Source: Escherichia coli (lineage in GTDB: Bacteria > Pseudomonadota > Gammaproteobacteria > Enterobacterales > Enterobacteriaceae). From it: a DNA stretch of 64,000 nt. The translations under genes and the position numbers were made by a program. Of this stretch, positions 5,772 to 20,100 are shown in pieces. Position 1 is the stretch's first letter. Each line of letters starts with the position of its first letter. Location of the stretch: assembly GCF_003019035.1 (NCBI RefSeq), contig NZ_CP027447.1. One strand, given 5' to 3'. A model generated the notes under the pieces. The model made no database searches. It was not told the origin of the DNA and was given only the letters and a program-made list of their open reading frames with translations.

Positions 5772-6113
5772 ATGCGCTGTAAAACGCTGACTGCTGCAGC
5801 AGCAGTACTATTGATGTTGACCGCAGGCTGTTCCACTCTGGAGCGAGTGGTTTACCGTCCTGACATCAACCAGGGGAACTATCTGACCGCTAACGACGTA
5901 TCCAAAATACGTGTTGGCATGACGCAACAACAAGTTGCGTACGCATTGGGTACACCGCTGATGTCCGATCCATTTGGTACGAATACCTGGTTCTATGTCT
6001 TCCGCCAGCAACCAGGTCATGAAGGTGTAACGCAGCAAACGCTGACGCTGACCTTTAATAGTAGCGGGGTGTTGACCAATATTGATAATAAACCTGCGCT
6101 GAGTGGTAACTAA
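5772..6113 (+). CDS. bamE: outer membrane protein assembly factor BamE (SmpA) lipoprotein
   Basis: 113 aa; signal peptide with lipobox LTAGC; matches E. coli BamE. Confidence 0.9.
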
Positions 6114-6139
6114 TAATAAAGTTGCTCTCAAAGACGTTA

Positions 6140-6168
6140 AAAAAGGTGCTCAATGAGCACCTTTTTTC
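6140..6168. terminator. bidirectional rho-independent terminator between bamE and ratB
   Basis: Hairpin AGGTGCTC-aatg-GAGCACCT flanked by an A-run and a T-run. Confidence 0.6.
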
Positions 6169-6174
6169 TGTCTG

Positions 6175-6465
6175 TTATTTATTCGCTGATTTTTCTGCTC
6201 GTTGCCTGCGCAGCTCTTTCGGATCGGCAATGAGAGGACGATAAATCTCCACCCGATCGCCATCATGCACGGTATCGCTCAGTTTGGCCGGACGGCTGTA
6301 AATGCCGACTTTGTTTTTAGTTAAATTGATATCGGTACGCAATTCCAGCAAGCCACTGGCACGAATAGCTTCTTCAACCGTCGCACCCTCCTGCAGCGTC
6401 ACGCGCTGCAGGTACTGCTTCTCAGGTAGCGCATAAGCCACCTCAACGGCAATTTTACCTGGCAC
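6175..6465 (-). CDS. ratB: UPF0125 protein RatB (YfjF)
   Basis: Translation [22 protein letters not shown]...; GTG start at 6463-6465 (cac on + strand); 96 aa; overlaps ratA stop by 11 nt. Confidence 0.8.
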
Positions 6466-6931
6466 TGTAAACCTCTTTCGCACGAACCGTAAAAGCCTGG
6501 ACCATATTAGCCGCCAGCTCTTTAAACACGCGACCAAAGGCGAGTTCAATCAACTTATTGGTAAACTCAAAGTCGAGATGAAACTCGATACGACACGCCT
6601 CCTGGCTCAGCGGCGTAAACTTCCATCCACCGATCAATTTCTTGAACGGCCCATCTACCAGATTCATAAGAATACTTTGGTTACTGGTCAACTGGTTGCG
6701 GGTAGTAAACGTTTTGCTGATCCCAGCCTTAGAGACATCTACCGCCGCAGTCATCTGCCCAGGAGTGGACTCCAGAATCCGACTTCCGGTACAACCCGGC
6801 AAAAACTGAGGATAAGACTGAACGTCATTCACTAACTGATACATTTGCTCCGCGCTGTAGGGTACCAGTGCGGTCCGGCTAATCTGAGGCATAACAATTT
6901 CCATCAACAAAAATCCAACAAATAATATCAT
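6455..6931 (-). CDS. ratA: ribosome association toxin RatA (YfjG), SRPBCC/polyketide cyclase-like fold
   Basis: 158-aa ORF matching remembered E. coli RatA; conserved position between bamE and smpB. Confidence 0.85.
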
Positions 6932-7062
6932 TTATCCTGCTGTAAAAAAAACGCTATCCCGGCGCTGGGTAACATCGGGTTCATGCTAAGATAGAGCCTT
7001 GTCCCCCGCAGGATTGATATGGGGTGTTTTCGATTTCAGATTACCGATGATTCACGACGCTT

Positions 7063-7545
7063 ATGACGAAGAAAAAAGCACATAAACCTGGTTCAGCGAC
7101 CATCGCGCTTAACAAGCGCGCCCGGCACGAATACTTTATCGAAGAAGAGTTCGAGGCGGGACTTGCCCTGCAAGGCTGGGAGGTTAAATCCCTGCGCGCA
7201 GGAAAAGCCAATATCAGCGACAGCTACGTCCTTCTGCGTGACGGAGAGGCATTTCTGTTTGGCGCTAACATCACGCCAATGGCTGTGGCCTCCACGCATG
7301 TGGTGTGCGATCCTACCCGTACCCGCAAGTTACTTCTCAACCAGCGCGAACTGGACTCATTGTACGGTCGCGTCAATCGAGAAGGCTATACCGTAGTGGC
7401 GCTCTCCCTGTACTGGAAAAATGCCTGGTGCAAAGTGAAAATCGGCGTCGCCAAAGGTAAGAAACAGCATGATAAACGTTCAGATATCAAAGAACGCGAA
7501 TGGCAGGTGGATAAAGCGCGTATCATGAAAAACGCCCACCGTTAA
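7063..7545 (+). CDS. smpB: SsrA-binding protein SmpB
   Basis: 160 aa; translation [28 protein letters not shown]... matches E. coli SmpB. Confidence 0.95.
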
Positions 7546-7759
7546 ACCTGCACTCCAATTATTGACCCGCTCCTCACCGCGCCTCCCTCTCCGGCGGCGC
7601 GAATGCACATCTTATTGGCTATCACATCCGACACAAATGTTGCCATCCCATTGCTTAATCGAATAAAAATCAGGCTACATGGGTGCTAAATCTTTAACGA
7701 TAACGCCATTGAGGCTGGTCATGGCACTCATGAATCTGGTATACTTACCGTTACACATT

Positions 7760-8122
7760 GGGGCTGATTCTGGATTCGACGGGATTTGCGAAACCCAAGG
7801 TGCATGCCGAGGGGCGGTTGGCCTCGTAAAAAGCCGCAAAAAATAGTCGCAAACGACGAAAACTACGCTTTAGCAGCTTAATAACCTGCTTAGAGCCCTC
7901 TCTCCCTAGCCTCCGCTCTTAGGACGGGGATCAAGAGAGGTCAAACCCAAAAGAGATCGCGTGGAAGCCCTGCCTGGGGTTGAAGCGTTAAAACTTAATC
8001 AGGCTAGTTTGTTAGTGGCGTGTCCGTCCGCAGCTGGCAAGCGAATGTAAAGACTGACTAAGCATGTAGTACCGAGGATGTAGGAATTTCGGACGCGGGT
8101 TCAACTCCCGCCAGCTCCACCA
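7760..8122 (+). ncRNA. ssrA: tmRNA (SsrA, 10Sa RNA)
   Basis: 363 nt from GGGGCTGATTCTGGATTCGACGGG to GGTTCAACTCCCGCCAGCTCCACCA; contains the tag-peptide ORF region (GCAAACGACGAAAACTACGCTTTAGCAGCTTAA) and a tRNA-like 3' end. Confidence 0.95.
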
Positions 8123-8158
8123 CTTTTTAGTAAAATGACGTCTACTAAAGTCTACTAA

Positions 8159-8190
8159 GGCCGCATACCACAAGGGTTTGCGGCCTTTTT
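8159..8190 (+). terminator. rho-independent terminator downstream of ssrA
   Basis: Hairpin GGCCGCA-taccacaagggtt-TGCGGCC followed by TTTTT. Confidence 0.6.
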
Positions 8191-8289
8191 CATGTCCAGT
8201 GAAGTCTACTGAGAATTGCTAGAAACCACTCCTTATGGCACCCTCCTATTATCCCTCGTCGATGAGGGAGTAAAAACGAGGGAGCAAAA

Positions 8290-9522
8290 ATGCCAAAGGT
8301 AGCAACAAAACTCACTGACACAGAGATCAAAAAGGCCAAGCCCACAGAGAAAGAGTTCACGCTATGGGATGGAGATGGCTTGTTCCTGCGCATCAAACCA
8401 AGTGGCAAAAAAATCTGGCACCTCGGCTATACCGTTCCATTAACCAAGAAACGGGCCAAAATGAGTCTTGGGTTCTATCCCTACCTGACACTTGCTCAAG
8501 CAAGAGCGCTACGGGATGAATACCTCTCTTTGCTTGCACAGGGTATCGATCCCCAATCCCACAATGAGCAAAAAGCCCAAGCGCTTAAAGATGCCACTGA
8601 ACACACATTCCAGACTGTAGCGAAAAAATGGCTTGATGAAAAAATTAAAACATCAGGCATATCGCAAGATCATGCTAAGGATATCTGGCGTAGCCTTGAA
8701 CGGAACATCTTTCCTACTTTAGGGGATGTTCCCATTAAAGAGATCCGCCCTAAAATGTTAAAACAACACCTTGACCCCATAGAACAAAGGGGCGTACTCG
8801 AAACCTTGCGACGTATAATTTCCCGACTTAATGAAATTTTCCGCTATGCCGCGACAGAAGAACTCATTGAGTTCAACCCCGCTGACAACCTTATCCAACG
8901 TTTTAGTAAACCCAAAAAGCAAAATATGCCTGCGTTGCCGCCAGATGAACTACCCCGTTTCATGACAGCATTATCAAACGCATCTATACGCTTAGAAACA
9001 CGTCTACTAATTGAATGGCAACTTCTTACTTGGGTTCGTCCCGGTGAAGCTGTACGCGCTCGCTGGACTGACATAGACGAAGAAAGCAAGTATTGGAACA
9101 TTCCATCCGATTTCATGAAGATGAAACGTCCTCATAAGGTTCCATTGAGCAAAGAAGCTATACGTATTCTTGAATCCATGAAACCAATCAGCGGTCATCG
9201 TGAGTGGGTTTTCCCCAGCATAAAAAATCCTTTAACACATATGCACGAGCAAACTGCCAACGCCGCATTAATCCGAATGGGCTTAGGTGGAGAACTCGTA
9301 GCACATGGCATGCGTTCTATTGCAAGAACAGCAGCAGAAGAAGCAGGAAAATTTAGGACAGAAGTTCTTGAAGCGGCTCTCGCCCACTCAAAAAAAGATG
9401 AAATCATTGCTGCTTATAACCGTACAGAATATTTAGTCGAGCGTGTCGAGTTAATGCAATGGTGGAGTGATTATCTCCAAATACAAAAATATAAGTCTTT
9501 AACAACTCTGATCGCCAGCTAA
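8290..9522 (+). CDS. P4-family tyrosine integrase (IntA-like, but not the CP4-57 IntA sequence)
   Basis: 410 aa; N-terminal LTDTEIKKAKP...LWDGDGLFLRIKPSGKK arm-binding-type domain typical of P4-like integrases; C-terminal AHGMRSIARTAAEE...LAHS catalytic region; sits immediately 3' of ssrA. Confidence 0.85.
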   Translation: MPKVATKLTDTEIKKAKPTEKEFTLWDGDGLFLRIKPSGKKIWHLGYTVPLTKKRAKMSLGFYPYLTLAQARALRDEYLSLLAQGIDPQSHNEQKAQALKDATEHTFQTVAKKWLDEKIKTSGISQDHAKDIWRSLERNIFPTLGDVPIKEIRPKMLKQHLDPIEQRGVLETLRRIISRLNEIFRYAATEELIEFNPADNLIQRFSKPKKQNMPALPPDELPRFMTALSNASIRLETRLLIEWQLLTWVRPGEAVRARWTDIDEESKYWNIPSDFMKMKRPHKVPLSKEAIRILESMKPISGHREWVFPSIKNPLTHMHEQTANAALIRMGLGGELVAHGMRSIARTAAEEAGKFRTEVLEAALAHSKKDEIIAAYNRTEYLVERVELMQWWSDYLQIQKYKSLTTLIAS

Positions 9523-9679
9523 TCCTACAATCAACCCAATATCAGAAGCTGGCTTTAGTAGGGATACTTCCATTTTTCTGATATTGTATTACCATGTAGC
9601 TGAAAGTCAGATACCAAGTAGAAAAACACATTTTTATGTATGCTTTATCGAATAAAACATTAACCAAATAGGGGGACTA

Positions 9680-10399
9680 ATGGAAGATTTAGTTTGTAGT
9701 TGGTCACCAAAGCTGATCGTTGATCTTATAAAAAGTATCGCTTGGCCAGTAGTCGTCCTTCTCATCGGCTTCAGTTTTCGAACTCGAATTTTTGAAGTGG
9801 CACGTTCATTTTTTTCTAAAAACACAGTTTCAGAAATATCAGCTACAGTATCAGGTGTATCGGCAAAATTTGTGACAGCAAAGCAAACAACTGAAGTATT
9901 AGAAAGTGCTAGTACCAATGCAGCGAATTTACCAAAGAGTATGAGTATTGAGGCTATAAGAGCGCGACATGAACAGCATAAAACAGAATTCAGCGAAGAG
10001 TTATATCAATCAATAATTAAACATGCTTCCTCTTTAGATATTAATAATGATGAAAAAGTCAAAATTCTGGCACGTGAATTGTCTATTTATCAAGCTATAA
10101 TACGATATATTGACATTAATAAGATATTATTTCGCTCACAATACAATTTATTTTGTTCTATAAATAGTAATGGTGGTCAAATAAATAAAGAAGACGCCAA
10201 TCTTTTTTTTGAGGCGACCAAGAACAACAATAAAGAAGCATTCTCCGATTGGGATTGGATTAAATATATTGCCTATCCTGTTAGTAATAGCCTTATCTAT
10301 GAAGATAATAATTTTTATAAACTTACAGAGTTGGGAAGATCGTATATAGCTTTTATGTCAAAAAATCCACAACTAATCGACGAACTTGCAAAATTATAG
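9680..10399 (+). CDS. hypothetical membrane-anchored protein (island cargo)
   Basis: 239-aa ORF, AT-rich codon usage, one N-terminal hydrophobic segment (IAWPVVVLLIGFSF); no recognisable family motif. Confidence 0.5.
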   Translation: MEDLVCSWSPKLIVDLIKSIAWPVVVLLIGFSFRTRIFEVARSFFSKNTVSEISATVSGVSAKFVTAKQTTEVLESASTNAANLPKSMSIEAIRARHEQHKTEFSEELYQSIIKHASSLDINNDEKVKILARELSIYQAIIRYIDINKILFRSQYNLFCSINSNGGQINKEDANLFFEATKNNNKEAFSDWDWIKYIAYPVSNSLIYEDNNFYKLTELGRSYIAFMSKNPQLIDELAKL

Positions 10400-10629
10400 T
10401 AGGGAATAATATTAAACCCTACTCAATGACTGTTTCAGATCTTGGTTCTGTATCCCATAAATGATCAGGTAAAGTCTAAGCGAATAGCGTTTAACAGGTG
10501 GGATGACTCACTACGTGAACCACCCACCTATAAAAAGGGTTTTTCTTCTGGTGAGTTGTCAATAAAAATGAAGGTTTCCACCTTTCATGCGGACCCTCCT
10601 TAATTTTTTTTGACAAGTTGAGATCGAGA

Positions 10630-11082
10630 CTATTTATCATTACGTTTTTTCATAAAATATTTATAACGTTCATCAGCTTCTTTTTGAAACTTTTCAGCGT
10701 CAAACGTATCAGTTTCTATTTTTATTTTTTGTTTTACCGCTTCATCTAATCTTTTATTTTCTTTCAATCTTTCTTTTTCTACTAATATAAGTTTATAGTA
10801 TTTTAGCTTAATATTAAAACTTGCTTTTGCTAACTCCTTAGCGTCAAAACCTATATTGTATTTTTTAAGAAGTTTCAATATATAATCTATAGTCATTTTT
10901 TTCACTTCCTTTTTTATTTTTTCTTCATGCGCATCTTTTTTTATACTCCCACTTTTTAACCATTGCTTAAATTTATAGCCATTATAATGCTGCCATTGAT
11001 ATATTTCAGCGGCATACATCACCGACAACATACAAACAATAAAAAATACAACCATAAAAACCACACATATTAAATAATACAT
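10630..11082 (-). CDS. hypothetical membrane-anchored Lys-rich coiled-coil protein (last gene of operon)
   Basis: 150 aa; N-terminal TM helix (YYLICVVFMVVFFIVCMLSVMY) followed by a charged helical region; 1-nt gap to the upstream ORF. Confidence 0.5.
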   Translation of the reverse strand: MYYLICVVFMVVFFIVCMLSVMYAAEIYQWQHYNGYKFKQWLKSGSIKKDAHEEKIKKEVKKMTIDYILKLLKKYNIGFDAKELAKASFNIKLKYYKLILVEKERLKENKRLDEAVKQKIKIETDTFDAEKFQKEADERYKYFMKKRNDK

Positions 11083-11083
11083 A

Positions 11084-11320
11084 TCAGCCCCCGCCTTTCC
11101 TTCTATATTGTTCTTTTATTAATGCTACGTGATATTTTTTTGCGTTGCTTATACTTACATCAGCAGAGTTTCTAGCAGAAGCAAAAGCACTTGAAACAAC
11201 AGAAGCAATAATGGCAACTAAGAAAGCAGCAACAAAAAAACCCATCACTGGCCCCATAAAACTAGCCCCACCGTCATCTATTGCTGGTTTTGCTTTTGCT
11301 AATAATGATAATAGGCTCAT
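11084..11320 (-). CDS. hypothetical small membrane protein
   Basis: 78 aa; central hydrophobic segment PVMGFFVAAFLVAIIASVVSSAF; basic Gly-rich C-terminus. Confidence 0.5.
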   Translation of the reverse strand: MSLLSLLAKAKPAIDDGGASFMGPVMGFFVAAFLVAIIASVVSSAFASARNSADVSISNAKKYHVALIKEQYRRKGGG

Positions 11321-11730
11321 ATATTTCTCTCTTCTTCAATGTTTTTAATCGCTGTTTCTATTCTTTGTTTTACAAAGTCTCTAAACACATAACCTATTAT
11401 TCGCGCGTCTTCACATATATCTAACTCATCTTTTTTATGAAAATATAAATCAGCGCTTAAAAGCTCTTCGCTTTGAATATTTAACATTTTACTAGCAAGT
11501 GATATTCTAATAATATTTCGCACTTCTAAATCCAAGCTTGCTCTATCATGCTTATTCAAAAGCTGGAGCGGATGAAAATCTTTTTTTCTTTTCATTTCTT
11601 GCATATCATTATCAAAATCTATCATTAAAAAATGTAAGCAAGTAAAAGACGTATCATAGAAGTTTAAGCGGTTCATCATATCCGCCGTTCCCTCTTTTCG
11701 AGGGTTCGGGTTAGGTCTTAATTTATTCAT
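11317..11730 (-). CDS. hypothetical protein
   Basis: 137 aa; no recognisable motif; 4-nt overlap with the downstream ORF. Confidence 0.5.
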   Translation of the reverse strand: MNKLRPNPNPRKEGTADMMNRLNFYDTSFTCLHFLMIDFDNDMQEMKRKKDFHPLQLLNKHDRASLDLEVRNIIRISLASKMLNIQSEELLSADLYFHKKDELDICEDARIIGYVFRDFVKQRIETAIKNIEEERNI

Positions 11731-12064
11731 CTGCTTTACTCCTTTTCTTGTTGTTTTTTAGCTTCCATTCATTCAATCTTTTATCGCCTTCAACTTTTAA
11801 GAACTCACGCTGATCGTGTATTCTTTTCAGTATTAGATTATTAGTTAACGCTCCTACTAACAAAGAAATATCATTCGCAAAATCTAATGTCTCGATGTTA
11901 TTTTCTCTAACTATTCTTATTAGTTCAGCGCCGGCTTTTATTTTACGTGTCGTATCTTTTTTCCTTTCTTCTGCCTTCATTTCTTGCTCCATTCTATTCA
12001 ATAAGTTTGCTCTTTGCTCAATTTCTTTTTTTAATTTATTATATTTTTCTATATTAAACGCCAT
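11723..12064 (-). CDS. hypothetical coiled-coil, Lys/Glu-rich protein
   Basis: 113 aa; highly charged helical sequence; overlaps neighbours (12064/12054, 11730/11723). Confidence 0.5.
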   Translation of the reverse strand: MAFNIEKYNKLKKEIEQRANLLNRMEQEMKAEERKKDTTRKIKAGAELIRIVRENNIETLDFANDISLLVGALTNNLILKRIHDQREFLKVEGDKRLNEWKLKNNKKRSKADE

Positions 12065-12383
12065 TTTCTGAACCTCTCTTTTCTTTTATCGTAATAAAAA
12101 AGGCAATCAACCCACTGATCAATAAAATTGGTAAAGTTAAAATAAACCCTACCAATAACACTAATGAAAATCCGAGCACGCCGGACATCTCATATAGATT
12201 TCCGAACAATGTGCTTTCGTTTTTATACTCAACCATATTCTGTAAAACAGACCTTTTTTCAATATCTTTTTCTTTTAAAGAATCTTCTCTATATTCATAA
12301 TCTTCACAACTCAAAGAAATTTCCACAGTGTTATCATTCAAATACTCATTATCATAATAGTCGTAATCATTATTCCCAATCAT
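12054..12383 (-). CDS. hypothetical membrane protein with acidic Tyr/Asp-rich N-terminus and C-terminal TM segment
   Basis: 109 aa; hydrophobic stretch GVLGFSLVLLVGFILTLPILLISGLIAFFI; overlapping stop/start with both neighbours. Confidence 0.5.
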   Translation of the reverse strand: MIGNNDYDYYDNEYLNDNTVEISLSCEDYEYREDSLKEKDIEKRSVLQNMVEYKNESTLFGNLYEMSGVLGFSLVLLVGFILTLPILLISGLIAFFITIKEKRGSENGV

Positions 12384-12565
12384 TCTAGATCTCCTTCTAA
12401 CGTGTCATAAACAACAGTAAAATCATTCTCATGAGAAAGAAGATTGTAAGTTATAAATAAGCTTGTCCTATAAACAATATCTGTATTTTCATCCTGTAGT
12501 TTTTGAATAATCAACTTAACAAGATCAGACGCTGCCACTTCAATTTTTTTATCAATATCATTCAT
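12380..12565 (-). CDS. hypothetical small protein (first gene of six-gene island operon)
   Basis: 61-aa ORF; stop overlaps the start of the next ORF (12383/12380); divergent from mobA. Confidence 0.45.
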   Translation of the reverse strand: MNDIDKKIEVAASDLVKLIIQKLQDENTDIVYRTSLFITYNLLSHENDFTVVYDTLEGDLE

Positions 12566-12729
12566 GTTCCACCTCTTTTATTTTTTATGATTTCTGTTAT
12601 ATATATTAAGTAATATAATTATTTATTTAAGTAAAGCGCGATATATATTTTTTTGTTTTTAGAACGCATTTTTCAGATAAAAGGCTCACGTGCGGCGGCT
12701 ATTTTAGTTTTGCTAAAAACTACAATAGC

Positions 12730-12762
12730 GCACTTATACATTCTTCGAATGTGTGCGCCCCA
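12730..12762 (+). other. candidate MobQ-type origin of transfer (inverted repeat plus nick-site-like GTGCGCCC)
   Basis: ACATTC-ttcg-GAATGT inverted repeat immediately followed by GTGCGCCC, resembling the RSF1010 oriT arrangement (inverted repeat then TAAGTGCG/CCCT nick region); about 140 bp upstream of mobA. Confidence 0.45.
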
Positions 12763-12901
12763 TAAATGGGGGTTTACTAACGCAGAAAAATAAAAAGTAA
12801 TATTCGCTTTATGCTCAATATTACTTAATCGCTTTTCAAAAAAGCAAATATATTTTTATTATTTTAAAAAGTATGTGTTTCAATATCAGGAGATAAAAAC
12901 A

Positions 12902-14203
12902 ATGGCAATATTTCATATGAGCGCTCAAACAATAACACGCAGCAAGGGGTATAGTAGCGTAGCTGCGGCAGCTTATCGCCACGGCGAAAAGTTAACGGAC
13001 GAACACACAGGAGAGATCCACGACTACAGCAAAAAGAAAGGTGTTTCAGACAGTGTTATATTAATACCTGAAAGCGCAGACCGTAATTTTTTAAAGCCTG
13101 CGTATTTATGGAACATGATAGAAAAAAGCGAAAAAAGAAAAGATGCGCAGTTAGCTCGCGAGTTTAATATTGCGCTTCCTGTCGAAATGACAGATGAACA
13201 AAAAAAGGCGTTAGCAATAGATTTTTGCCAAGAGCATTTTGTAAAAAATGGAATGATTGCTGATATAGCTTTTCACAAGCTCGATAGCGACAACCCACAT
13301 TTTCATGTAATGCTAACCACCCGCAGCCTTACGCCGGACGGTTCAGAGTTCGGACATAAAGTCAGGGAATGGAACAACAAAGAGCAGCTCGAAGGCTGGC
13401 GCAAGAGCTGGGCTGACACAGCGAACGAGCACATGCAAAAGGCTGGCATCGATGCGCATATAGATCACAGATCACTGAAAGAACAAAAAGCAGAGCTTGA
13501 CGCTATCCTCCCCCCTCTCAGAACGATTGAGCAAGAGGCGCAGGCTATCAGCTTAGACAGACCGCCGACTATCCATAGAGGCCATAGCCGCAATCCAGAG
13601 CGACAAGCACGCTTTGACGTGCTCCAAGAAGTGAAAGTATCACAAGAGGAAAAAGCACTTAACCACATTGAACAGAAACAACTTAAGCCCTCGCCGCTGG
13701 CTCCAGCTTCCTCCCCTGCCGCATCTTTGCAAGATGCTACACAAGGAGGCAATGAAAACAACCCGCAAAATAGACTCGGCGAAGTTGGCGAATATCTTCA
13801 ATCTAAACTCAATAAAGAAGATAAAGCAGATCTTAATACTGATAATGAAATCAAAGTTCACACTACTAAAAATAATAGGGAAAGCAGTTCAGCAGCAGCT
13901 ATAGGTTCAACATCAAATATTAATTTAACCGATGAGAAAACAGATAAGAATCTACACTTAACAGAAGCACAAAAAGAAGAGTTAGAGGATTTAGAAAATA
14001 AAGAAGCAGCAGCGAAGAAAAAAGCTTATCTGATGAGCGGAGCTGCCGTTCCTGAACTTTCTCAAGATTACAAAACACTGTCAAAAAGTGAGTTTAAAAA
14101 TAAGCTTCATACAGCTAAACAATCAATATCATTAACTGAAAAGAGATTTAATGAAGAATGTGAAGCATATGATAACAGAAGAAAACGACCAATACCGCGC
14201 TAA
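12902..14203 (+). CDS. mobA: MobA/MobL-family (MobQ-type) conjugative relaxase
   Basis: N-terminus MAIFHMSAQTITRSKGYSSVAAAAYRHGEKL is the characteristic MobA/MobL signature; HFHVML histidine motif present; Ser/Glu/Lys-rich low-complexity C-terminus; AGGAG RBS 8 nt upstream of ATG 12902. Confidence 0.8.
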   Translation: MAIFHMSAQTITRSKGYSSVAAAAYRHGEKLTDEHTGEIHDYSKKKGVSDSVILIPESADRNFLKPAYLWNMIEKSEKRKDAQLAREFNIALPVEMTDEQKKALAIDFCQEHFVKNGMIADIAFHKLDSDNPHFHVMLTTRSLTPDGSEFGHKVREWNNKEQLEGWRKSWADTANEHMQKAGIDAHIDHRSLKEQKAELDAILPPLRTIEQEAQAISLDRPPTIHRGHSRNPERQARFDVLQEVKVSQEEKALNHIEQKQLKPSPLAPASSPAASLQDATQGGNENNPQNRLGEVGEYLQSKLNKEDKADLNTDNEIKVHTTKNNRESSSAAAIGSTSNINLTDEKTDKNLHLTEAQKEELEDLENKEAAAKKKAYLMSGAAVPELSQDYKTLSKSEFKNKLHTAKQSISLTEKRFNEECEAYDNRRKRPIPR

Positions 14204-14563
14204 GTATTTTGCTCATTTTTTATCCCCAATGAATGACTTAGCGTTATATTTACTTTAACTAATTGATACTATTGATTTATTTTCACCTCACGTCGTATCG
14301 TTTATATCGATCAAAATCGACAAAGTGATAGTTAACACCTATCACAACCAATTCATCGATCGATTAAAACAATTAATACACCGATCGATAAACGAGATTT
14401 AATCGTTAAAAACTATCAATATTAAATAATTGATCTGTTATAACGATCATTTTGCTTGAGAGTAGCCCTCCTCATGGTATGCTCGGAGCGTGGAAGACCG
14501 GGCTACTCACCTTGATATCTTCTTGATTAAGCAAAACTATCGCTCTATGAGGAATGAAATTTT

Positions 14564-15058
14564 ATGAAAACCGAAAACATTATTTTTCTTGTTTGGGCAG
14601 TGATTTTTATCCTGATTCTCTGCCAACTTTTTTATTTTGGCCCTAAAAAAAGAAGATACCTCAATACTTATATAGAGGTATTAGATGGTGATGTCCTCTC
14701 ATATGAATGTCAAAATACCGGCGTAGTTATTGATACTAAAAAAAACACAGTACGTATTTTCAATACATATAAGGACAGCACTTTCAAATACGACAACATC
14801 AGGGAAATAAATTATACGCTATCCGAAGCCGGAAAAATTTATAGCACAAGTAATAATCTAAACTCTATGATAAAGTCCGCTGGAGCTAACAGTAATGAAC
14901 AAATGTTAGCTAATCAGCGTTCCGGTATTTTTATACTGACAGATGATATAAAAAATCCTTCATGGAAAATCAATCTACCAATGAAAAACAAAACATCATC
15001 TACCAATCAGGAGATCTGCGATCGATGGCTTCTCATTTTTAAAAAATACGTTTTATAA
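14564..15058 (+). CDS. hypothetical membrane-anchored protein
   Basis: 164 aa; N-terminal hydrophobic helix IIFLVWAVIFILILCQLFYF; AT-rich; no recognisable motif. Confidence 0.5.
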   Translation: MKTENIIFLVWAVIFILILCQLFYFGPKKRRYLNTYIEVLDGDVLSYECQNTGVVIDTKKNTVRIFNTYKDSTFKYDNIREINYTLSEAGKIYSTSNNLNSMIKSAGANSNEQMLANQRSGIFILTDDIKNPSWKINLPMKNKTSSTNQEICDRWLLIFKKYVL

Positions 15059-15090
15059 CTTTGTTTTTTATTTTTATCTTTGGAGTTGAC

Positions 15091-15468
15091 ATGAAAAAAT
15101 TGATTGCGGCAGCATTTATTATTCTCCCTTTAGCAAGTTGTACTGTTTATGGAAACAAATCCATTAAAGACGAAACGCAGCAAAATATAGCCTCTAAAAT
15201 TATAAAAGGTAAAACTACTCAAAAAGATATCCTTCAACTTTATGGAGAACCTCAGACTAAAGAAACTAACGATGGTAAAGAAATGTGGGGATATTCCGTT
15301 ATGTCCGGTGAATCTCAGATTTCAAATTACATACCGGGATTAGCGTTATTGAAGAATAGCAGCACAGCGCACATGAAAGAACTTGAGATCTTGTTTAAAG
15401 GTGATGTAGTTGAACGCTATACCTTTAGACAAACGGCAAGCAAAGCTTCTCGCGGGTTGTTAGATTAA
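15091..15468 (+). CDS. putative lipoprotein
   Basis: Start chosen at ATG 15091 (GGAG RBS upstream); signal peptide MKKLIAAAFIILPLASC with lipobox L-A-S-C; 125 aa. Confidence 0.55.
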   Translation: MKKLIAAAFIILPLASCTVYGNKSIKDETQQNIASKIIKGKTTQKDILQLYGEPQTKETNDGKEMWGYSVMSGESQISNYIPGLALLKNSSTAHMKELEILFKGDVVERYTFRQTASKASRGLLD

Positions 15469-16469
15469 TTTAAATTAAATACCATTTTATCTTTAAAAAG
15501 AAGTTGGAATAGTCCGACTTCTTTTCTATTTTATCAATAACATGCATTATTTATATTAGTGCCTTATGAAATGGCACCTTACTTTTTATATTTCCCTATC
15601 TGGGGGTTTAACCTTTGTTTTTTATTAAAAAAAATTTTGTACTAGTAGTACTAATTAATTAATTTAAAAATTTTTGGTTTTAAGGTTTTGGGGTTTGTGT
15701 TTTAGCGGGGCGGCTTTCAGCCGTAGTAGTTTTCCTCCGAAGGAGGAAATAGTTTTTCTTTAAGCATTCCCCCCCTACCCCCCACGCCAAAAAGGCTAAA
15801 AAAGAGAGATAGGAGATGCTCATTGCGTCTTGAAAATATTCAGAACGTTTCCATTCTGATACTTCCCCCACGACCCACGCAAACACAAATCATGAAACTT
15901 TCAAACAACTCTCGTTTTACTAAAGAGTCTATGCTACTGTTTGTAAATTTTTTAGATTGTGCGATTCAGGTTGGCAGCTACGCATATCCCGGTTAACCGC
16001 TGCCGCAATATTCTAAGTTTCACCAAACACTCGATGTCCTTCGTACTTAGACCTTGATACAACAAGGGTAATATTATATTGCTTTTGTAGATTAAATGTT
16101 TCTGGAAATGGTATTGACATTTTATCTATGTCAAAGTCGGCGAAATTTGTTTAATCATGCAGATTAGAGGCTTCTGGAAGTGGTATTTAATATTAGTTAA
16201 AAGTCGACGAAGCATTTCTAATCTTTTGTATCTTTATATTATATAAATCTATATATAACACCAGTCAATAGATGAAATCAAAAATATTTTAAAAACATGA
16301 CTAGATGAAAAACAAAAAAAGACCAGATTAAACCCCAGTCTCTTTTTTACTTAATATCAGTTATGTTTTTCATATATAGTTCTAAAACGCTCTGTACGCG
16401 ATTTTGAGACGTTTTACACTGGAAGCGGCGTAATCATATAAATAATAAAATAGAATACTGTAATGATTT

Positions 16470-16685
16470 TTATGCCGCTTGATTACGCGAATAAAAAATC
16501 TTATCATCAATCCATTCGTCAACTTCACTTTCAACAAATGCGATAGTTCTTTCACCAGTCTTGATCGGAGAAGGGAAATCACCCCGGCTAATCAGCCGAT
16601 AGATCCACGCTTTACAAAAACCAGTCTTGTTTAACACTTCGGGTATGCGGATAAGTCTTTTTCTTTCGTTCATATATTTCCTCAT
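16470..16685 (-). CDS. AlpA-family phage-type transcriptional regulator / excisionase-like DNA-binding protein
   Basis: 71-aa ORF; RIPEVLNKTGFCKAWIYRLISRGDFPSP resembles the AlpA/Xis helix-turn-helix region. Confidence 0.7.
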   Translation of the reverse strand: MRKYMNERKRLIRIPEVLNKTGFCKAWIYRLISRGDFPSPIKTGERTIAFVESEVDEWIDDKIFYSRNQAA

Positions 16686-17133
16686 AGTTGTTTTGATGAG
16701 GCTATTATTCGAATATCGCTTATGACGATCAACAACTTTTTTAGCAAAAAGTGCTTTTTTAGTTGACTATTTTAAATTAACAGTCATTTAATCACCTTTG
16801 GAAGTTGAACTCATGAGTTCAACTCCTCACCGCTAGTCATGACATTCAAAATGTGCTTATTTTTTAGCCACAATACTTTTTTTATCCCTTTATTGCACCT
16901 CAATGTAAAATACAAATAATTAATATATTTAATAATCAAATGATTAAAGAGTCGATTACAGGGACGCCAGCCAATCATGATTGGACGGTGTAAGGACAAC
17001 ACTAATAAAAACAGGAAGTTAGCAGTCTCAGCAGGACACCGACCAGACGGTGAGGAGACATAAAAGGATACGCAAAGGAGCCGCGGCCCCTGGTGATATG
17101 AAAGCCCACAGATGTGGGCTTTTTCGTTGATGG

Positions 17134-20100
17134 TCAGAACGACCAGTTCACACCAGCCACTGCGTTCCACGGGGATTCCACACCGGCACCATGGCTATAC
17201 CCCACCCCGAGATGCCCGCTTAACGAACTGCTGAATGAGGCTTTAATACCTGCCTGGTATATTCCACGTCTGCCCGACAAATCATTGACAAAATTACCGT
17301 CATTATTCACTTTCACCCGGTTATCATCGACAAATTCTTTGCGCACAGCCGCCTTCAGCCACGGCTCAACTTCCATGCCGTTCCCCAGACGCATGTTGTA
17401 ACTCAGCGTTGCGCCCAGTTCACGATATATACTGCGGGTATCGACTGATTTCGATTCCATGCCATTGGATAAATGATATTCGGGGTTATCAGCGGTGAAC
17501 CCCGTTAACGATGCATACGGCGTCAGGTTCCAGTTACCATCGGTAAATCGCATCCCGGTTTCAATGTGACCGCCCAGCCCGTTGCTGCGATAACTGCCGT
17601 TGGCGGCTCCACCGCTGCTCATTTTACCGGCTACGTTACTTTCAAAGCGGTTCAGCTTCACGATACCGTCCAGATAGAAACCACTTTCATGTTCCCAGCT
17701 GGCATAGCCCCCCAGAGAATAACTGCCCACACTGCCATGTCCTCCACGATCAAAACCGATATGTGAATGGGAATAACCCATAAAAGCGCCCAGCGTCGCA
17801 ATCCCCTCAGGAATATCATTACGGCTATCGATCCCCACCGTCATTCCGGTCAGCGTCTGCTCAAACCCGGCACCCGCATCGGTGGTGACATTATTACGGG
17901 TGTTATACGTCGTCCCCCAGACATTATTGTTGTGTGGACTCGCTTTCATTATGTTCAACCGCTCGCGAATACTGTTTAGCTCAGCATCAAAGACCAACGG
18001 TAATGTTGCTGCCATATTGAGTACGGCTGCCGTAGAAGGCGTGATGCGTTTCTCCGGGACGGGTGTCGGCGTTGGATCGGGAGTCGGGTCTGGTTTCGGA
18101 TCCGGTTTTGGGTCTGGTTTTGGATCCGGCTTCGGATTTGGGTTGGGGTCCGGGTTGGGTTTGACATCATTGGTCAGGTTCCAGTTGCTGTTGCCGTCGC
18201 TTTTCAGGACATACTCATAGGTCCCAAGATCAACGAAACCGCCGGTATTACCCAGCGTAAACGAAGCATCCCCTCCCCCTGTTTTCACCAGCGTCATCGC
18301 GTCGTCAGACTGAGGGCTGACGCCGGTATCCTGAACAAAGATTTTAAAATTACCAGTGGCGTTGTTGTTGACGACCAGTTGATCGCCCCGGGAGCCTGCA
18401 ACGTTGGTATGCAGGTAGAAATTACCGCTGCCGGAAAGTTCACTGGTTGTCAGCGTATTGTAGATACCGTTAGTTGTGGCAGGCGCTGCTGTTTGTGCTG
18501 ATAAATAAACATCACCGTCGTTGAGGAGCAAACTGTTTACTCTATATTCGCAGTTGCTGGTACCTGCACAGGAATTATTGCTGTTAAGCCAGACACTGCC
18601 CCGGCTGGCAGCCGTCAGGTCGGTAAGCGTCGTATCGACGCCATTTCCGATAGTTAATGTCGCGCTATCGGTAATCCGGATCGCCCCTTCGAGTTTAACT
18701 GGCGTAACATTATCCCGTGGCGTCATTAACGACAGGCTTCCTGTCGCGCCACTGACCGATGCATCCGCCAGCGTACCTGCATAGACGATTGCCGTCCCGC
18801 CAGCGACCTGGAGATCTTCTGCCCGGGCCAGAGCCTGAAACTCATCTTTTGACCGCCCAAGGGTATATTGCCCGCCAGAGTTAACCTTTGTGGCGGAGTC
18901 CTGACCCAGGTTTTGCATTGCACCACCCTTGCCAACCTTGGAGTCACGGGCTTCGGTACCTGCTAATACCAATAAATTACCGCCATTTTCCAGCAGCACA
19001 TTGGTCGCTAAATTGCCGGCAATGGAAAAGGTGCCGTACTGGTGAGTACCGCTGATTTCAATACCGTTAGCCGTGCTCGTCTGGAGAGCGGCACCGCTGT
19101 TCTGGACGATATCTGTCGCTTTGCCATTATCGTTGACTGTCAGCGTACCGCCTTCATTGATCGTTGTTTTTATTGCCTCTCCGTTAGCCGAAACTGTTTG
19201 TATTCCGCCGTCGTTAATCGTTGTCTCATTCGCCACACCCTCGACGATTTGTTCGCCGCCGGTGAGCGTCGTGCCTGTCGCAGTGGCTTTTGTTTTGACG
19301 ATCTCCCGCCCGCCCGCATTGACCTGTGTTTTGACGGAAGAGGTGTCTGACTCCACGGTTAACACGCCGCCATTTGTCAGCAGGATATTGTTCGCCGCAC
19401 CCTGCTCGATGCTGAACGCGACGCCATCAGCGCGTGTCCCTGTGACCCGCGTCGCCCTGGTGGTTGCAACCAACGCGCCCTGGCTACTTTGCTGTATCCC
19501 CGTTGCGCTGCCTTTCTCCCGCACATCGAGTGTGCCGCCGTCATTAAGCACCGAGTTTTCAGCCAGACCGCCCTCATTAACTACCTGTGAACCGCCATTA
19601 ATAATGGAACCTTCCGCTGTCCCGTTTACCATAATTTGTTGTAGGCCAGAGACGATATCGGTATTGATCGCCTTACCATAATTCTGAACGGTTTGCGTAC
19701 CGCCATTGATGTGCGTTTTGTCTGTTGACCCACCATCAACAATTTGTTCACCACTTTCGATATTTGCCTCAGTGGCTAAACCATATACCGTTTGCTTGCC
19801 ACCTTTGATATTTGCTTTATCAGAAGTGGCACTGGCATATATTGTTTGGGTACCCGCACTATTGAGTACAGTGCCAACATCTTTTCCATAAACATCCATT
19901 TTACCGTTGGCATTAATAATCGTATCAACTGCCCGGGAACCAGTAACGACTGTTAATGAGCCAGCGTTTTCCAGCACTACATTTTTAGCTTCTGAATTCC
20001 TGATGTAGAAAGCATCACCATAACTGTTGGTTCCTTCGATAAGTGTTCCGGAAGTCGTGGAAGCAATTAATGCGCCGCCGGATTGTTGCTCAACATGCTT

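What the first reader, a model, noticed from the sequence alone, without database searches (positions are those of the whole stretch)
8123..16830. ssrA-linked island combining a P4-family integrase, a MobQ relaxase and an AlpA regulator (integrative mobilizable element-like), replacing CP4-57
The tmRNA 3' end is followed by a P4-type integrase, then AT-rich cargo, a MobA/MobL relaxase with an upstream oriT-like site, and an AlpA-family gene at the far end reading inward. In K-12 this slot holds the CP4-57 prophage with a different integrase. I found no full direct repeat of the ssrA 3' end at the right side, only a 10-bp match GTTCAACTCC at 16818-16827, so the element may be decayed or its attR lies elsewhere.
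Basis: partly seen in the sequence, partly recalled or inferred. Interest (0 to 1): 0.6.

Follow-up and report, generated by a model that had tools for sequence, protein, structure and literature searches.

The report
Mobilizable defence island at the tmRNA gene
This is an intact 8.85-kb hitch-hiking genomic island inserted in the end of the tmRNA gene; it pairs an integrase and excisionase with the transfer module of a small plasmid, and it belongs to a known kind of element rather than a new one.

Summary
ssrA (7760-8122) is followed by a P4-type integrase, AT-rich DNA, six small ORFs, a MobQ relaxase with a conserved upstream oriT-like block, a DUF4755 gene, a lipoprotein gene and an inward-reading alpA.

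It reads TTACAGGGA-CGCCAGC-CA (16956-16973) and abuts the conserved ypjA-side backbone at 16974. Eleven related copies in E. coli, Salmonella and metagenomes all lose similarity to this island just after CGCCAGC. What follows is either backbone or the left end of another ssrA island, once CP4-57 itself.

The element therefore spans about 8116-16971. The inferred crossover is the 7-bp CGCCAGC in the last 14 nt of ssrA. The GTTCAACTCC palindrome is internal to the element.

Window 10491-14107 is 78-87% identical to the backbone of 5.4-6.6-kb Rep plasmids of Enterobacterales. The island looks like that plasmid's mobilization module with the integrase and AlpA genes in place of Rep.

A slot after int holds DRT9, type II restriction-modification or a HEPN protein in relatives. 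Here it holds an orphan 239-aa membrane-anchored winged-helix protein.

All genes are intact, with dN/dS of 0.04-0.31. Verdict: a canonical integrative mobilizable element, a new member of a known kind, moderately interesting. Excision and transfer are inferred, not shown.

The parts
7760..8122 (+). ssrA (tmRNA gene), the integration target; its last 14 nt are CGCCAGC (8109-8115) and TCCACCA (8116-8122)
   Evidence: ARAGORN; Rfam tmRNA 295.8 bits; exact coordinates
8109..8122 (+). attL core: the inferred 7-bp crossover CGCCAGC, followed by an ssrA tail (TCCACCA) that the element would supply
   Evidence: Empty-site strain CI5 reads ...CGCCAGCTCCACCA|ATCATGATTGG, whereas the window reads ...CTCCACCA|CTTTTTAG. 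CGCCAGC is the only block shared by the attL and attR sides.
8139..8212 (+). Three direct copies of (A/C)GTCTACT(A/G)A at 8139-8148, 8149-8158 and 8203-8212. They are candidate arm-type integrase sites and flank a hairpin with a T-run (8159-8190) that could terminate ssrA.
   Evidence: Pattern scan; sequence read directly; the same motif lies at the left ends of the other ssrA islands. Binding is inferred.
8290..9522 (+). P4-type tyrosine integrase, 410 aa
   Evidence: It is 49% identical to K-12 IntA, and the HxxR, AH and AYNR motifs are conserved in that alignment. dN/dS is 0.05-0.06 against relatives.
9499..10490 (.). Cargo slot 1, a segment that differs among family members. Here it carries one ORF (9680-10399, +, 239 aa) predicted to have an N-terminal membrane helix, a helical region and a C-terminal winged helix.
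10491..14107 (.). Mobilization module shared with small Rep plasmids: six small ORFs, the oriT region and most of mobQ
   Evidence: 78-87% nucleotide identity to 5.4-6.6-kb plasmids of E. coli, Klebsiella, Salmonella, Enterobacter and Kosakonia
10496..10529 (.). Inverted repeat AGGTGGG-N20-CCCACCT at the left edge of the plasmid-type module; function unknown
   Evidence: Conserved in both islands and plasmids exactly where similarity resumes after the cargo slot
10630..12565 (-). Six overlapping small ORFs of 150, 78, 137, 113, 109 and 61 aa, transcribed divergently from mobQ; function unknown, possibly relaxosome accessory or establishment proteins
   Evidence: ORF list. Conserved in islands and plasmids with dN/dS 0.04-0.27. 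No significant family hit; there is only a faint DUF3847 hit for the 113-aa ORF. The 137-aa family is confined to this module, with all hits at least 80% identical.
12698..12761 (+). [not shown]
   Evidence: Alignment A3; coordinates. GTGCGCCC is the core of the published MOBQ oriT consensus NWACCNNTAAGTGCGCCCTYNN (PMC3832669). Nicking is inferred.
12902..14203 (+). MobQ-family relaxase, 433 aa
   Evidence: NCBIfam NF041496 at 254.4 bits, cut-off 200; Pfam MobA_MobL at E 5e-63. The AAAAYRHG tyrosine motif and the HKLDSDNPHFH histidine motif can be read in the sequence. dN/dS is 0.06-0.31.
14564..15058 (+). DUF4755 protein, 164 aa, with an N-terminal membrane helix
   Evidence: Pfam PF15947 at E 2.6e-10. 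Its 90%-identity cluster spans Salmonella, E. coli, Klebsiella and Pectobacterium.
15091..15468 (+). Small lipoprotein, 125 aa, with lipobox LASC; function unknown, entry exclusion is a guess
   Evidence: phrog_3135 at E 1e-28, a family of unknown function; weak LPAM_1 hit; a terminator-like hairpin follows at 15496-15525
16470..16685 (-). AlpA-family excisionase/regulator (PGAP starts it at 16673). A promoter-like site lies at 16732-16704 and a terminator-like hairpin at 16347-16314.
   Evidence: Pfam Phage_AlpA at E 4e-16; phrog_66; promoter and terminator scan. AlpA acts as the excisionase of the ssrA element CP4So (PMC5148205).
16803..16824 (.). It is internal to the element and marks the inner edge of a 174-bp right-arm module (16799-16972). 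Function unexplained.
   Evidence: Identical in three diverged E. coli variants and in the Salmonella copies. The 174-bp segment also occurs without the rest of the island (L018) and to the right of an inserted R-M cassette (L016).
16956..16973 (+). attR: TTACAGGGA (element side), CGCCAGC (16965-16971, inferred crossover), CA (a decayed remnant of the displaced ssrA tail TCCACCA). Backbone ATCATGATTGG begins at 16974.
   Evidence: Junction comparison across 13 loci; similarity of relatives in other contexts ends at 16971-16972; empty-site alignment

Best explanation
The region is an integrative mobilizable element (IME) of about 8.85 kb, spanning roughly 8116-16971. It is integrated into the extreme 3' end of ssrA.

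Proposed life cycle:
1. AlpA, encoded next to attR, switches on or directs excision. The P4-type integrase then recombines attL and attR within the shared 7-bp CGCCAGC and releases a circle.
2. The MobQ relaxase nicks the conserved oriT block upstream of its own gene.
3. The single strand is exported through the type IV secretion system of a co-resident conjugative plasmid or ICE, because the island encodes no secretion system of its own.
4. In the recipient the integrase inserts the recircularized element into ssrA. The element supplies a fresh TCCACCA tail and a terminator hairpin, so tmRNA stays functional.

The mobilization module (10491-14107) is the backbone of a family of 5.4-6.6-kb Rep plasmids of Enterobacterales. 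The island is that module with integrase and AlpA genes where the plasmids carry Rep.

A slot just downstream of int carries interchangeable cargo, which is anti-phage defence in several relatives.

Shown here: gene content and intactness, family membership of Int, MobQ and AlpA, exact borders, conserved gene order across hosts, sequence sharing with the plasmids, and purifying selection. Inferred: the crossover position, oriT function, the role of AlpA, excision, transfer and the helper.

For: Recombination module. The integrase has the P4-type architecture, scores above the NCBIfam cut-off and keeps the catalytic motifs. AlpA matches Pfam at E 4e-16. AlpA is the excisionase of the ssrA element CP4So (PMC5148205).

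Mobilization module. MobQ scores above its curated cut-off. A 64-nt block holding a hairpin and GTGCGCCC is invariant, apart from one substitution in one island, across three islands and three plasmids that are otherwise 81-91% identical over that intergenic region. The block matches the core of the published MOBQ oriT consensus. The module is shared with plasmids of five genera.

Coherence and spread. The same gene order occurs in four complete E. coli genomes, two IS1-truncated E. coli copies, five metagenome and two viral-collection loci, and Salmonella enterica. The 90%-identity MobQ cluster has 178 members, mostly from Salmonella. dN/dS is 0.04-0.31 for all 11 genes tested.

The island is always the ssrA-proximal member of tandem arrays, as expected for the most recent integration into the functional ssrA end.

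No ORF in the island matches a T4SS, coupling-protein, replication or phage structural family.
Against: No excised circle or attP junction was found. Every junction recovered is chromosomal or tandem.

In the window the chromosomal half-site of attR is reduced from TCCACCA to CA. This could impair excision, and excision would leave ssrA without a proper acceptor stem.

The oriT-like match to the published consensus is only 11 of 17 specified positions. TGCGCCCT with one mismatch is not enriched in the window (44 found, 61 expected).

The function of the six small ORFs is unknown. No helper element can be seen within the window.

The family is rare in complete E. coli genomes: 4 of 5,426.
Confidence: 0.78

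Rival explanations
1. This copy is a fixed, no longer mobile derivative of such an element. The family is or was an IME, but here the decayed attR prevents productive excision, and the island persists as a chromosomal carrier of its cargo.
For: attR keeps CGCCAGC but only CA of the TCCACCA half-site. Recombination would replace the ssrA end ...CAGCTCCACCA with ...CAGCCAATCA, which removes the acceptor-stem 3' strand. The analogous loss of a single U after CP4So excision already inactivates tmRNA functions (PMC5148205). A near-identical copy in strain SCU-301 (99.6%) already carries frameshifts in several small ORFs and in DUF4755.
Against: All 12 ORFs are intact in the window and evolve under purifying selection. 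The same CGCCAG-CCA scar adjoins unrelated islands in MZ1211 and O157:H7. That pattern is easiest to explain if islands have been exchanged to the left of this scar by site-specific recombination. CP4-57 in K-12 excises even though its attR is degenerate (established knowledge; cited in PMC5148205).
Confidence: 0.3
2. It is a phage satellite of the P4, PICI or PICMI type, packaged and moved by a helper phage rather than by conjugation. On this reading the relaxase module is incidental cargo.
For: The P4-type integrase, AlpA and tmRNA-gene integration are shared with P4-like satellites and CP4-57. Two copies were found in a viral-contig collection.
Against: There is no primase/helicase, no capsid-size or helper-exploitation gene, and no hit of any small ORF to a PHROG of known function. 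Nothing in 50,697 phage records matches the island. The central 3.6 kb is a complete plasmid mobilization module kept under purifying selection. The viral-collection hits are explained by adjacent CP4-57-like DNA.
Confidence: 0.04
3. It is a chance juxtaposition of remnants of different elements: an integrase stump, an integrated small plasmid and an orphan alpA.
For: The modules differ in divergence: dS is about 0.65 for int but about 0.14 for mobQ against the same relatives, and the alpA allele is replaced in some relatives. The mob module also exists on its own as plasmids.
Against: The complete gene order and both borders recur in E. coli, Salmonella and metagenomes. Variation is confined to defined cargo slots. 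The att ends are cognate: the same TTACA(G/A)GGACGCCAGC end accompanies related integrases that are 63-94% identical.
Confidence: 0.03

Closest known systems
Canonical integrative mobilizable elements ('iMOB'), as defined by Guedon et al. 2017 (PMC5704250) and surveyed in bioRxiv 10.64898/2026.01.13.699239
   Same: It has its own tyrosine integrase and excisionase, its own canonical relaxase and oriT, no T4SS or coupling protein, a small size, and adaptive cargo.
   Different: The 2017 review stated that no described proteobacterial IME was of this canonical type. The 2026 survey reports that most oriTs of integrative elements are specific to integrative elements. Here the oriT-mobQ module is shared at 78-87% nucleotide identity with free small plasmids.
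CP4-57 cryptic prophage of E. coli K-12 and CP4So of Shewanella
   Same: All integrate in the 3' end of ssrA, use a P4-type integrase with an AlpA-family protein, and have a degenerate attR, so excision damages ssrA.
   Different: Int is only 49% and AlpA only 32% identical to the K-12 proteins. The element side of the core differs: TTACAGGGA here, against TTCAGACTC in CP4-57. alpA lies at the far end and reads inward. No cargo is shared. CP4-57 is 22 kb and has no relaxase. The two can sit in tandem (L020).
5.4-6.6-kb MobQ/Rep plasmids of Enterobacterales, for example pKFu022_4 (NZ_CP091681.1), K. pneumoniae Kp23-unnamed3 (NZ_CP092396.1) and a Kosakonia oryzendophytica contig
   Same: They carry the same six small ORFs, the same invariant oriT block and the same relaxase N-terminal domain, which is 72-93% identical at the protein level.
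   Different: The plasmids carry a 563-aa Rep with weak HUH/IS91-like similarity. They lack int, alpA, DUF4755, the lipoprotein and the cargo slot. The relaxase C-termini differ beyond 14107.
Defence hotspots of P4-like satellites and integrase-associated defence islands
   Same: A variable slot immediately downstream of a P4-type integrase carries DRT9, type II R-M or a HEPN protein in different copies.
   Different: The carrier here is a conjugatively mobilizable element, not a phage satellite. The window's own cargo matches no known defence family.

Membership tests
Canonical IME (integrative mobilizable element) | Encodes its own integration and excision module | tested here: met
   An intact P4-type integrase and an AlpA-family gene lie at opposite ends, next to attL and attR.
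Canonical IME (integrative mobilizable element) | Encodes a canonical relaxase and carries an oriT | tested here: met
   MobQ scores above the curated cut-off. The candidate oriT is a conserved hairpin plus GTGCGCCC block. oriT activity itself was not tested.
Canonical IME (integrative mobilizable element) | Has no T4SS or coupling-protein genes | tested here: met
   None of the 12 ORFs matches such a family in NCBIfam, Pfam or PHROGs.
Canonical IME (integrative mobilizable element) | Excises as a circle and is mobilized in trans by a conjugative helper | not testable with these tools
   Indirect support only: the same element occurs at ssrA in several genera, and it is always the ssrA-proximal member of tandem arrays.
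P4-type tyrosine integrase targeting tRNA or tmRNA genes | Arm-binding N-terminal domain, central domain and catalytic domain, with the R..HxxR..H..Y residues | tested here: met
   Pfam domains; PRK09692 at 462.6 bits, cut-off 434; the motifs align with K-12 IntA.
P4-type tyrosine integrase targeting tRNA or tmRNA genes | Element flanked by a repeat of the 3' end of the target gene | tested here: met
   [not shown]
MobQ relaxase | Score above the NCBIfam equivalog cut-off, with the N-terminal catalytic Tyr and the HxDx(3)PHxH-type histidine motif | tested here: met
   NF041496 at 254.4 bits, cut-off 200. AAAAYRHG and HKLDSDNPHFH can be read in the translation.
CP4-57 prophage | IntA and AlpA orthologues and the CP4-57 gene set | tested here: not met
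   Int is 49% and AlpA 32% identical. No similarity to K-12 exists beyond ssrA and the ypjA flank.
P4-like or PICI-type phage satellite | Replication (primase/helicase) and helper-exploitation or packaging genes | tested here: not met
   No such PHROG, Pfam or NCBIfam hits; no match in the phage collection.
Known anti-phage defence system (for the 239-aa cargo gene) | Match to a PADLOC, NCBIfam or Pfam defence family | tested here: not met
   Only a chance-level PADLOC hit at E 0.011. The defence role is suggested solely by the gene's position in a slot that holds DRT9, R-M or HEPN genes in relatives.

The most novel reading that the evidence does not exclude
The 239-aa orphan protein in cargo slot 1 (9680-10399) is a previously unrecognized single-gene defence or exclusion determinant. 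It is predicted to have an N-terminal membrane helix, a disordered linker, a helical region and a C-terminal winged helix. It occupies exactly the slot that carries DRT9, type II R-M or a HEPN protein in sister elements. Its homologues, all about 239 aa, are scattered singly through variable regions of Enterobacterales, Vibrio, Aeromonas and Alteromonas genomes, in one case next to a TIR-domain gene and an IS200-type transposase. A second point of some novelty is that the same oriT-mobQ backbone exists both as a Rep plasmid and as an Int/AlpA island. This would be a direct example of conversion between plasmid and IME.
Probability: 0.25. Interest if true: 0.6.

Novelty: new member of a known kind. 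Interest (0 to 1): 0.4.

Why it matters
The analysis gives exact borders, a testable 7-bp crossover and a candidate oriT for a small, genetically simple IME family. The family is common in Salmonella enterica and sporadic in E. coli and other Enterobacterales.

It shows one mobilization backbone living two lifestyles, as a free Rep plasmid and as an ssrA-integrated island. This bears on how mobilizable plasmids and IMEs interconvert.

It identifies two cargo slots that shuttle defence systems (DRT9, R-M, HEPN) between genera. That nominates the window's orphan 239-aa gene as a defence candidate.

It also documents tandem stacking, and probably replacement, of islands at the tmRNA gene. attR decay there makes excision costly to the host.

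Tried and rejected
1. T-loop crossover at GTTCAACTCC as attR. Rejected: the 139 bp to its right are conserved in every family member and travel with the element into Salmonella and into tandem contexts. Similarity ends only at 16971-16972.

2. The segment 16827-16966 as a remnant of an older island. Rejected for the same reason. It also lacks the hairpin, arm repeats and integrase that mark the left ends of ssrA islands.

3. CGCCAGC at 9513-9519, at the end of int, as a second att site flanking the cargo. Rejected: it is present only in this cargo variant, and about one such 7-mer is expected by chance.

4. The genome-contig scan with MobQ returned a single locus, a circular Kosakonia plasmid contig. 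It helped with the plasmid link but not with att.

5. PADLOC, PHROGs, NCBIfam and Pfam gave nothing significant for the six small ORFs or the 239-aa cargo. The faint DUF3847 hit for the 113-aa ORF (E 0.02) is only a hint.

6. The homologue search for the 137-aa ORF found only relatives at 80% identity or more. No deeper profile or structure was attempted.

7. No iterons or replication-origin-like repeats were found in the 1-kb non-coding stretch 15469-16469. Rfam found nothing there.

8. The Rfam IsrM hit at 8085-8191 scores 31.6 bits against a gathering score of 376. It is not a member.

9. Williams 2003, 'Traffic at the tmRNA gene', could not be retrieved. Statements about sublocation classes rest on my own knowledge.

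10. The correlation of attR core type with integrase lineage was sampled only in K-12, MZ1211, O157:H7 and this family, not tested systematically.

Full report
1. What is there

ARAGORN and Rfam place the tmRNA gene at 7760-8122 on the + strand. Downstream, G+C falls from about 0.50 to 0.28-0.37 between about 9500 and 16750, and returns to about 0.51 at the 3' end of ypjA, which spans 17134-21831 on the - strand.

The ORFs in the island are listed below.

| Coordinates | Strand | Length | Identity |
|---|---|---|---|
| 8290-9522 | + | 410 aa | int |
| 9680-10399 | + | 239 aa | cargo ORF |
| 10630-12565 | - | 150, 78, 137, 113, 109, 61 aa | six overlapping small ORFs |
| 12902-14203 | + | 433 aa | mobQ |
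| 14564-15058 | + | 164 aa | DUF4755 protein |
| 15091-15468 | + | 125 aa | lipoprotein |
| 16470-16685 | - | 71 aa | alpA |

About 1 kb without a credible ORF lies between the lipoprotein gene and alpA.

Family assignments are firm.
- Int has the Arm-DNA-bind_3, Phage_int_M and Phage_integrase domains and scores 462.6 bits against NCBIfam PRK09692, cut-off 434.
- MobQ scores 254.4 bits against NF041496, cut-off 200, and matches Pfam MobA_MobL at E 5e-63.
- AlpA matches Pfam PF05930 at E 4e-16.
- The integrase keeps the HxxR, AH and AYNR motifs in its alignment with K-12 IntA.
- The relaxase shows the N-terminal AAAAYRHG tyrosine motif and the HKLDSDNPHFH histidine motif (read).

The 10-mer GTTCAACTCC is real, with 2 copies in the window against 0.09 expected, but it lies at 16817-16826, one base left of the stated position.

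2. Where the element really ends

E. coli strain CI5 has an empty site...CGCCAGCTCCACCA|ATCATGATTGGACGG..., with ypjA immediately downstream. In the window, ssrA ends ...CGCCAGCTCCACCA (8109-8122) and is followed by CTTTTTAG. The backbone sequence ATCATGATTGG resumes at 16974, preceded by TTACAGGGA-CGCCAGC-CA at 16956-16973.

I searched a metagenome collection and a viral-contig collection with the invariant palindrome. I also followed the relaxase into Salmonella assemblies. The sequence to the left of TTACAGGGACGCCAG is always this island. What lies to the right depends on context:
- The left end of a different ssrA island in L014, L017, L019 and the Salmonella loci L029-L031.
- The left end of CP4-57, exactly as in K-12, in L020.

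BLAST similarity of all these loci to the window stops at 16971-16972.

The switch between island-specific and host-specific sequence therefore falls at CGCCAGC. That is the only block common to the element side (TTACAGGGA|CGCCAGC) and to ssrA (CAACTCC|CGCCAGC). I infer a 7-bp crossover there, at the asymmetric extreme 3' end of the tmRNA gene. The element supplies TCCACCA and a hairpin with a T-run (8159-8190), which would keep ssrA intact after integration. The crossover position is an inference from sequence comparison, not a mapped exchange.

Unrelated islands in MZ1211 and O157:H7 end with the same TTACA(G/A)GGACGCCAGCCA. In MZ1211 the ssrA-proximal integrase is 63% identical to the window's. 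That array also contains an internal GGACGCCAGCACCA about 7.3 kb from ssrA, so it is a tandem array. CP4-57, whose IntA is 49% identical, has a different element-side core, TTCAGACTC|CGCCAGC. These few cases fit a cognate pairing of integrase clade and core, but I did not test this systematically.

GTTCAACTCC lies inside a perfect palindrome, AGTTGAACTC-AT-GAGTTCAACT (16803-16824), 139 bp inside the element. The palindrome is identical in three E. coli variants whose flanking bases differ. It is also identical in Salmonella copies that my exact pattern could not have selected.

It marks the inner edge of a 174-bp right-arm segment (16799-16972). That segment also occurs without the rest of the island in L018, and to the right of a 2.5-kb R-M insertion in L016. 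It is therefore a conserved part of the right arm, not attR and not a remnant of an older island.

Why the right arm should carry a copy of the ssrA T-arm sequence is unexplained. A binding site for Int or AlpA is my guess.

4. A coherent family, not scattered remnants

Salmonella enterica carries the same architecture at ssrA next to fljA-fljB-hin-iroB. There it is 90-94% identical over 10491-16115 and 82% identical over the int and alpA regions. The 90%-identity MobQ cluster has 178 members, most of them named as Salmonella. One member alone is recorded on 486 contigs. The DUF4755 cluster also includes Klebsiella and Pectobacterium. The 137-aa ORF occurs in chromosomes of Photorhabdus, Citrobacter and Yersinia.

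Pairwise dN/dS against these relatives is 0.04-0.31 for all 11 genes tested (every gene except the variant-specific cargo), including the six small ORFs. These are therefore real genes maintained by selection.

Divergence differs by module: dS is about 0.65 for int but about 0.14 for mobQ against the same relatives, and the alpA allele is replaced in some. The family is mosaic, but always within the same architecture.

5. The plasmid connection

Window 10491-14107 covers the six small ORFs, the intergenic region and all but the last roughly 32 codons of mobQ. It is 78-87% identical to 5.4-6.6-kb circular plasmids of E. coli, Klebsiella, Salmonella, Enterobacter and Kosakonia.

The rest of those plasmids is a 563-aa Rep with weak HUH/IS91-like similarity at E 7e-8, below the cut-off. 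The island's right module (14108-16966) is not found on plasmids, and nothing in the island matches the phage collection.

The full-consensus match is only 11 of 17 specified positions, and the short motif alone is not enriched in the window. The argument for oriT rests on conservation, the hairpin geometry and the position 140 bp upstream of mobQ.

The island is most simply described as this plasmid's mobilization module with Int, AlpA and att in place of Rep. The direction of that exchange is unknown.

6. Cargo

Similarity among family members breaks at 9473-9498, inside the last codons of int, and resumes at 10455-10491. That point is also the left edge of the plasmid-type module and carries a conserved inverted repeat at 10496-10529.

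Contents of this slot in different copies:
- A DRT9 reverse transcriptase in PigCaeca_1 and XJ5.2 (PADLOC E 1e-221).
- A PstI-like type II R-M system in Salmonella.
- Two small ORFs in L016.
- The 239-aa ORF in the window, SCU-301 and 6EVA.

L016 also reveals a second slot, between the alpA promoter region and the palindrome, holding another type II R-M system.

The 239-aa protein has no hit in Pfam, NCBIfam, PHROGs or PADLOC. It has 73 homologues, nearly all about 239 aa long. They are scattered through Enterobacterales, Vibrio, Aeromonas, Alteromonas and Thalassolituus as single genes in variable neighbourhoods, one of them next to a TIR_2 gene and an IS200-type transposase.

7. Mechanism and state of this copy

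The proposed cycle is AlpA-dependent excision by Int at CGCCAGC, nicking at oriT by MobQ, export through a helper's T4SS, and re-integration into ssrA. This follows established knowledge of canonical IMEs (PMC5704250) and of AlpA as the excisionase of ssrA-integrated CP4So (PMC5148205). None of these steps is shown here.

In the window the chromosomal half of attR is reduced to CA. Excision at CGCCAGC would leave ssrA ending ...CAGCCAATCA, without its acceptor-stem 3' strand or the U of the G.U pair. Loss of that single U after CP4So excision already alters tmRNA function. Excisants would therefore pay a cost, and excision itself may be impaired.

Against complete immobility, every ORF is intact. 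The same short scar adjoins unrelated islands in other lineages. That is most easily explained by tandem integration followed by excision of the distal element, that is, island replacement. L020, which is this island plus CP4-57, looks like the tandem intermediate. Recurrent slippage in the C-rich tail could also produce the shared scar, so this point is suggestive only.

8. Comparison and novelty

The element meets the structural definition of a canonical IME: its own Int and Xis, a canonical relaxase, an oriT and no T4SS. It is not CP4-57 and not a P4-type satellite (see the membership table).

Relaxase-bearing IMEs are now known to be numerous in E. coli and Salmonella (bioRxiv 10.64898/2026.01.13.699239), so the kind is known. 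The 2017 review noted that no described proteobacterial IME was of the canonical type. The 2026 survey finds that oriTs of integrative elements are mostly distinct from plasmid oriTs. A family whose oriT-mobQ module is shared with free plasmids is thus a useful, though not surprising, case.

I found no paper describing this family, but my literature search was limited.

I rate it a new member of a known kind, interest 0.4. The most novel reading still open is that the 239-aa cargo gene is a new defence determinant, with a probability of about 0.25.

Noticed in passing
window 24849-24924 (-): ARAGORN calls a tRNA-Met with anticodon CAT. The syntenic gene downstream of ypjA in other E. coli records is annotated tRNA-Ile (L008, L013), so this is presumably ileY, whose CAT anticodon is modified to read Ile.
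   Followed up: no
window 60783-61374 (-): Four tandem tRNA-Arg(ACG) genes spaced 139-141 bp apart, followed by tRNA-Ser(GCT). This is an ordinary tRNA operon, well away from the finding.
   Followed up: no
window 16086-16115 and 16158-16187: An imperfect 30-nt direct repeat with 72-bp spacing lies in the non-coding stretch between the lipoprotein gene and alpA. Alignments with every diverged relative break and restart exactly here (16115/16161), which suggests an indel or a recombination joint between the right-hand modules.
   Followed up: partly
window 15469-16469: About 1 kb of AT-rich DNA with no conserved ORF, no Rfam hit and no iterons is nevertheless retained in all family members. It contains terminator-like hairpins for the lipoprotein gene and for alpA. 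Its function is unknown.
   Followed up: partly
window 10496-10529: The inverted repeat AGGTGGG-N20-CCCACCT is conserved in both islands and plasmids. It lies exactly at the junction between cargo slot 1 and the plasmid-type module. It could be a terminator, a single-strand origin or a recombination site.
   Followed up: no
L001 (E. coli SCU-301, NZ_CP051751.1) 5931-7678 and 9857-10269: The 99.6%-identical copy in SCU-301 is annotated with shortened small ORFs and a frameshifted DUF4755 pseudogene, whereas the window's copies are intact. This is either early decay in that strain or assembly errors.
   Followed up: partly
L008 (E. coli 6EVA) 13441-14138 and L009 (XJ5.2) 14876-15573: In two E. 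coli genomes an IS1 element truncates the island after the fourth or fifth small ORF. In XJ5.2 everything from there to the alpha-amylase-family gene is absent, including mobQ, alpA, attR and ypjA; in 6EVA some downstream genes and the tRNA-Ile gene remain.
   Followed up: partly
window 16470-16800 versus L007, L016, L020: The alpA coding sequence is replaced by a 67-70%-identical allele in several relatives. The roughly 100 bp upstream of it (about 16707-16800, including the promoter-like site) is almost invariant, which suggests a strongly constrained regulatory or arm region.
   Followed up: partly
window 8085-8191 (+): Rfam gives a sub-threshold hit to IsrM, a Salmonella island-encoded sRNA, at 31.6 bits against a gathering score of 376. 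The hit spans the ssrA end and the island's left arm. It probably reflects shared ssrA-island left-end sequence rather than an IsrM gene.
   Followed up: no
L028 (E. coli MZ1211) and L013 (O157:H7 ATCC 43890): The ssrA-ypjA interval in these strains is a tandem array of several islands, about 31 kb long in MZ1211. The islands are separated by GGACGCCAGC-type scars, and the arrays include sugar-utilization and helicase cargo. The locus is a multi-occupancy integration hotspot.
   Followed up: partly
H113 (NZ_OL790696.1, listed in the plasmid collection, 4.8 Mb) 1847059-1848268: A 69%-identical copy of the DUF4755-lipoprotein gene pair lies elsewhere in an E. coli replicon of chromosome size that is filed as a plasmid. 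The pair may be a self-contained two-gene module.
   Followed up: no
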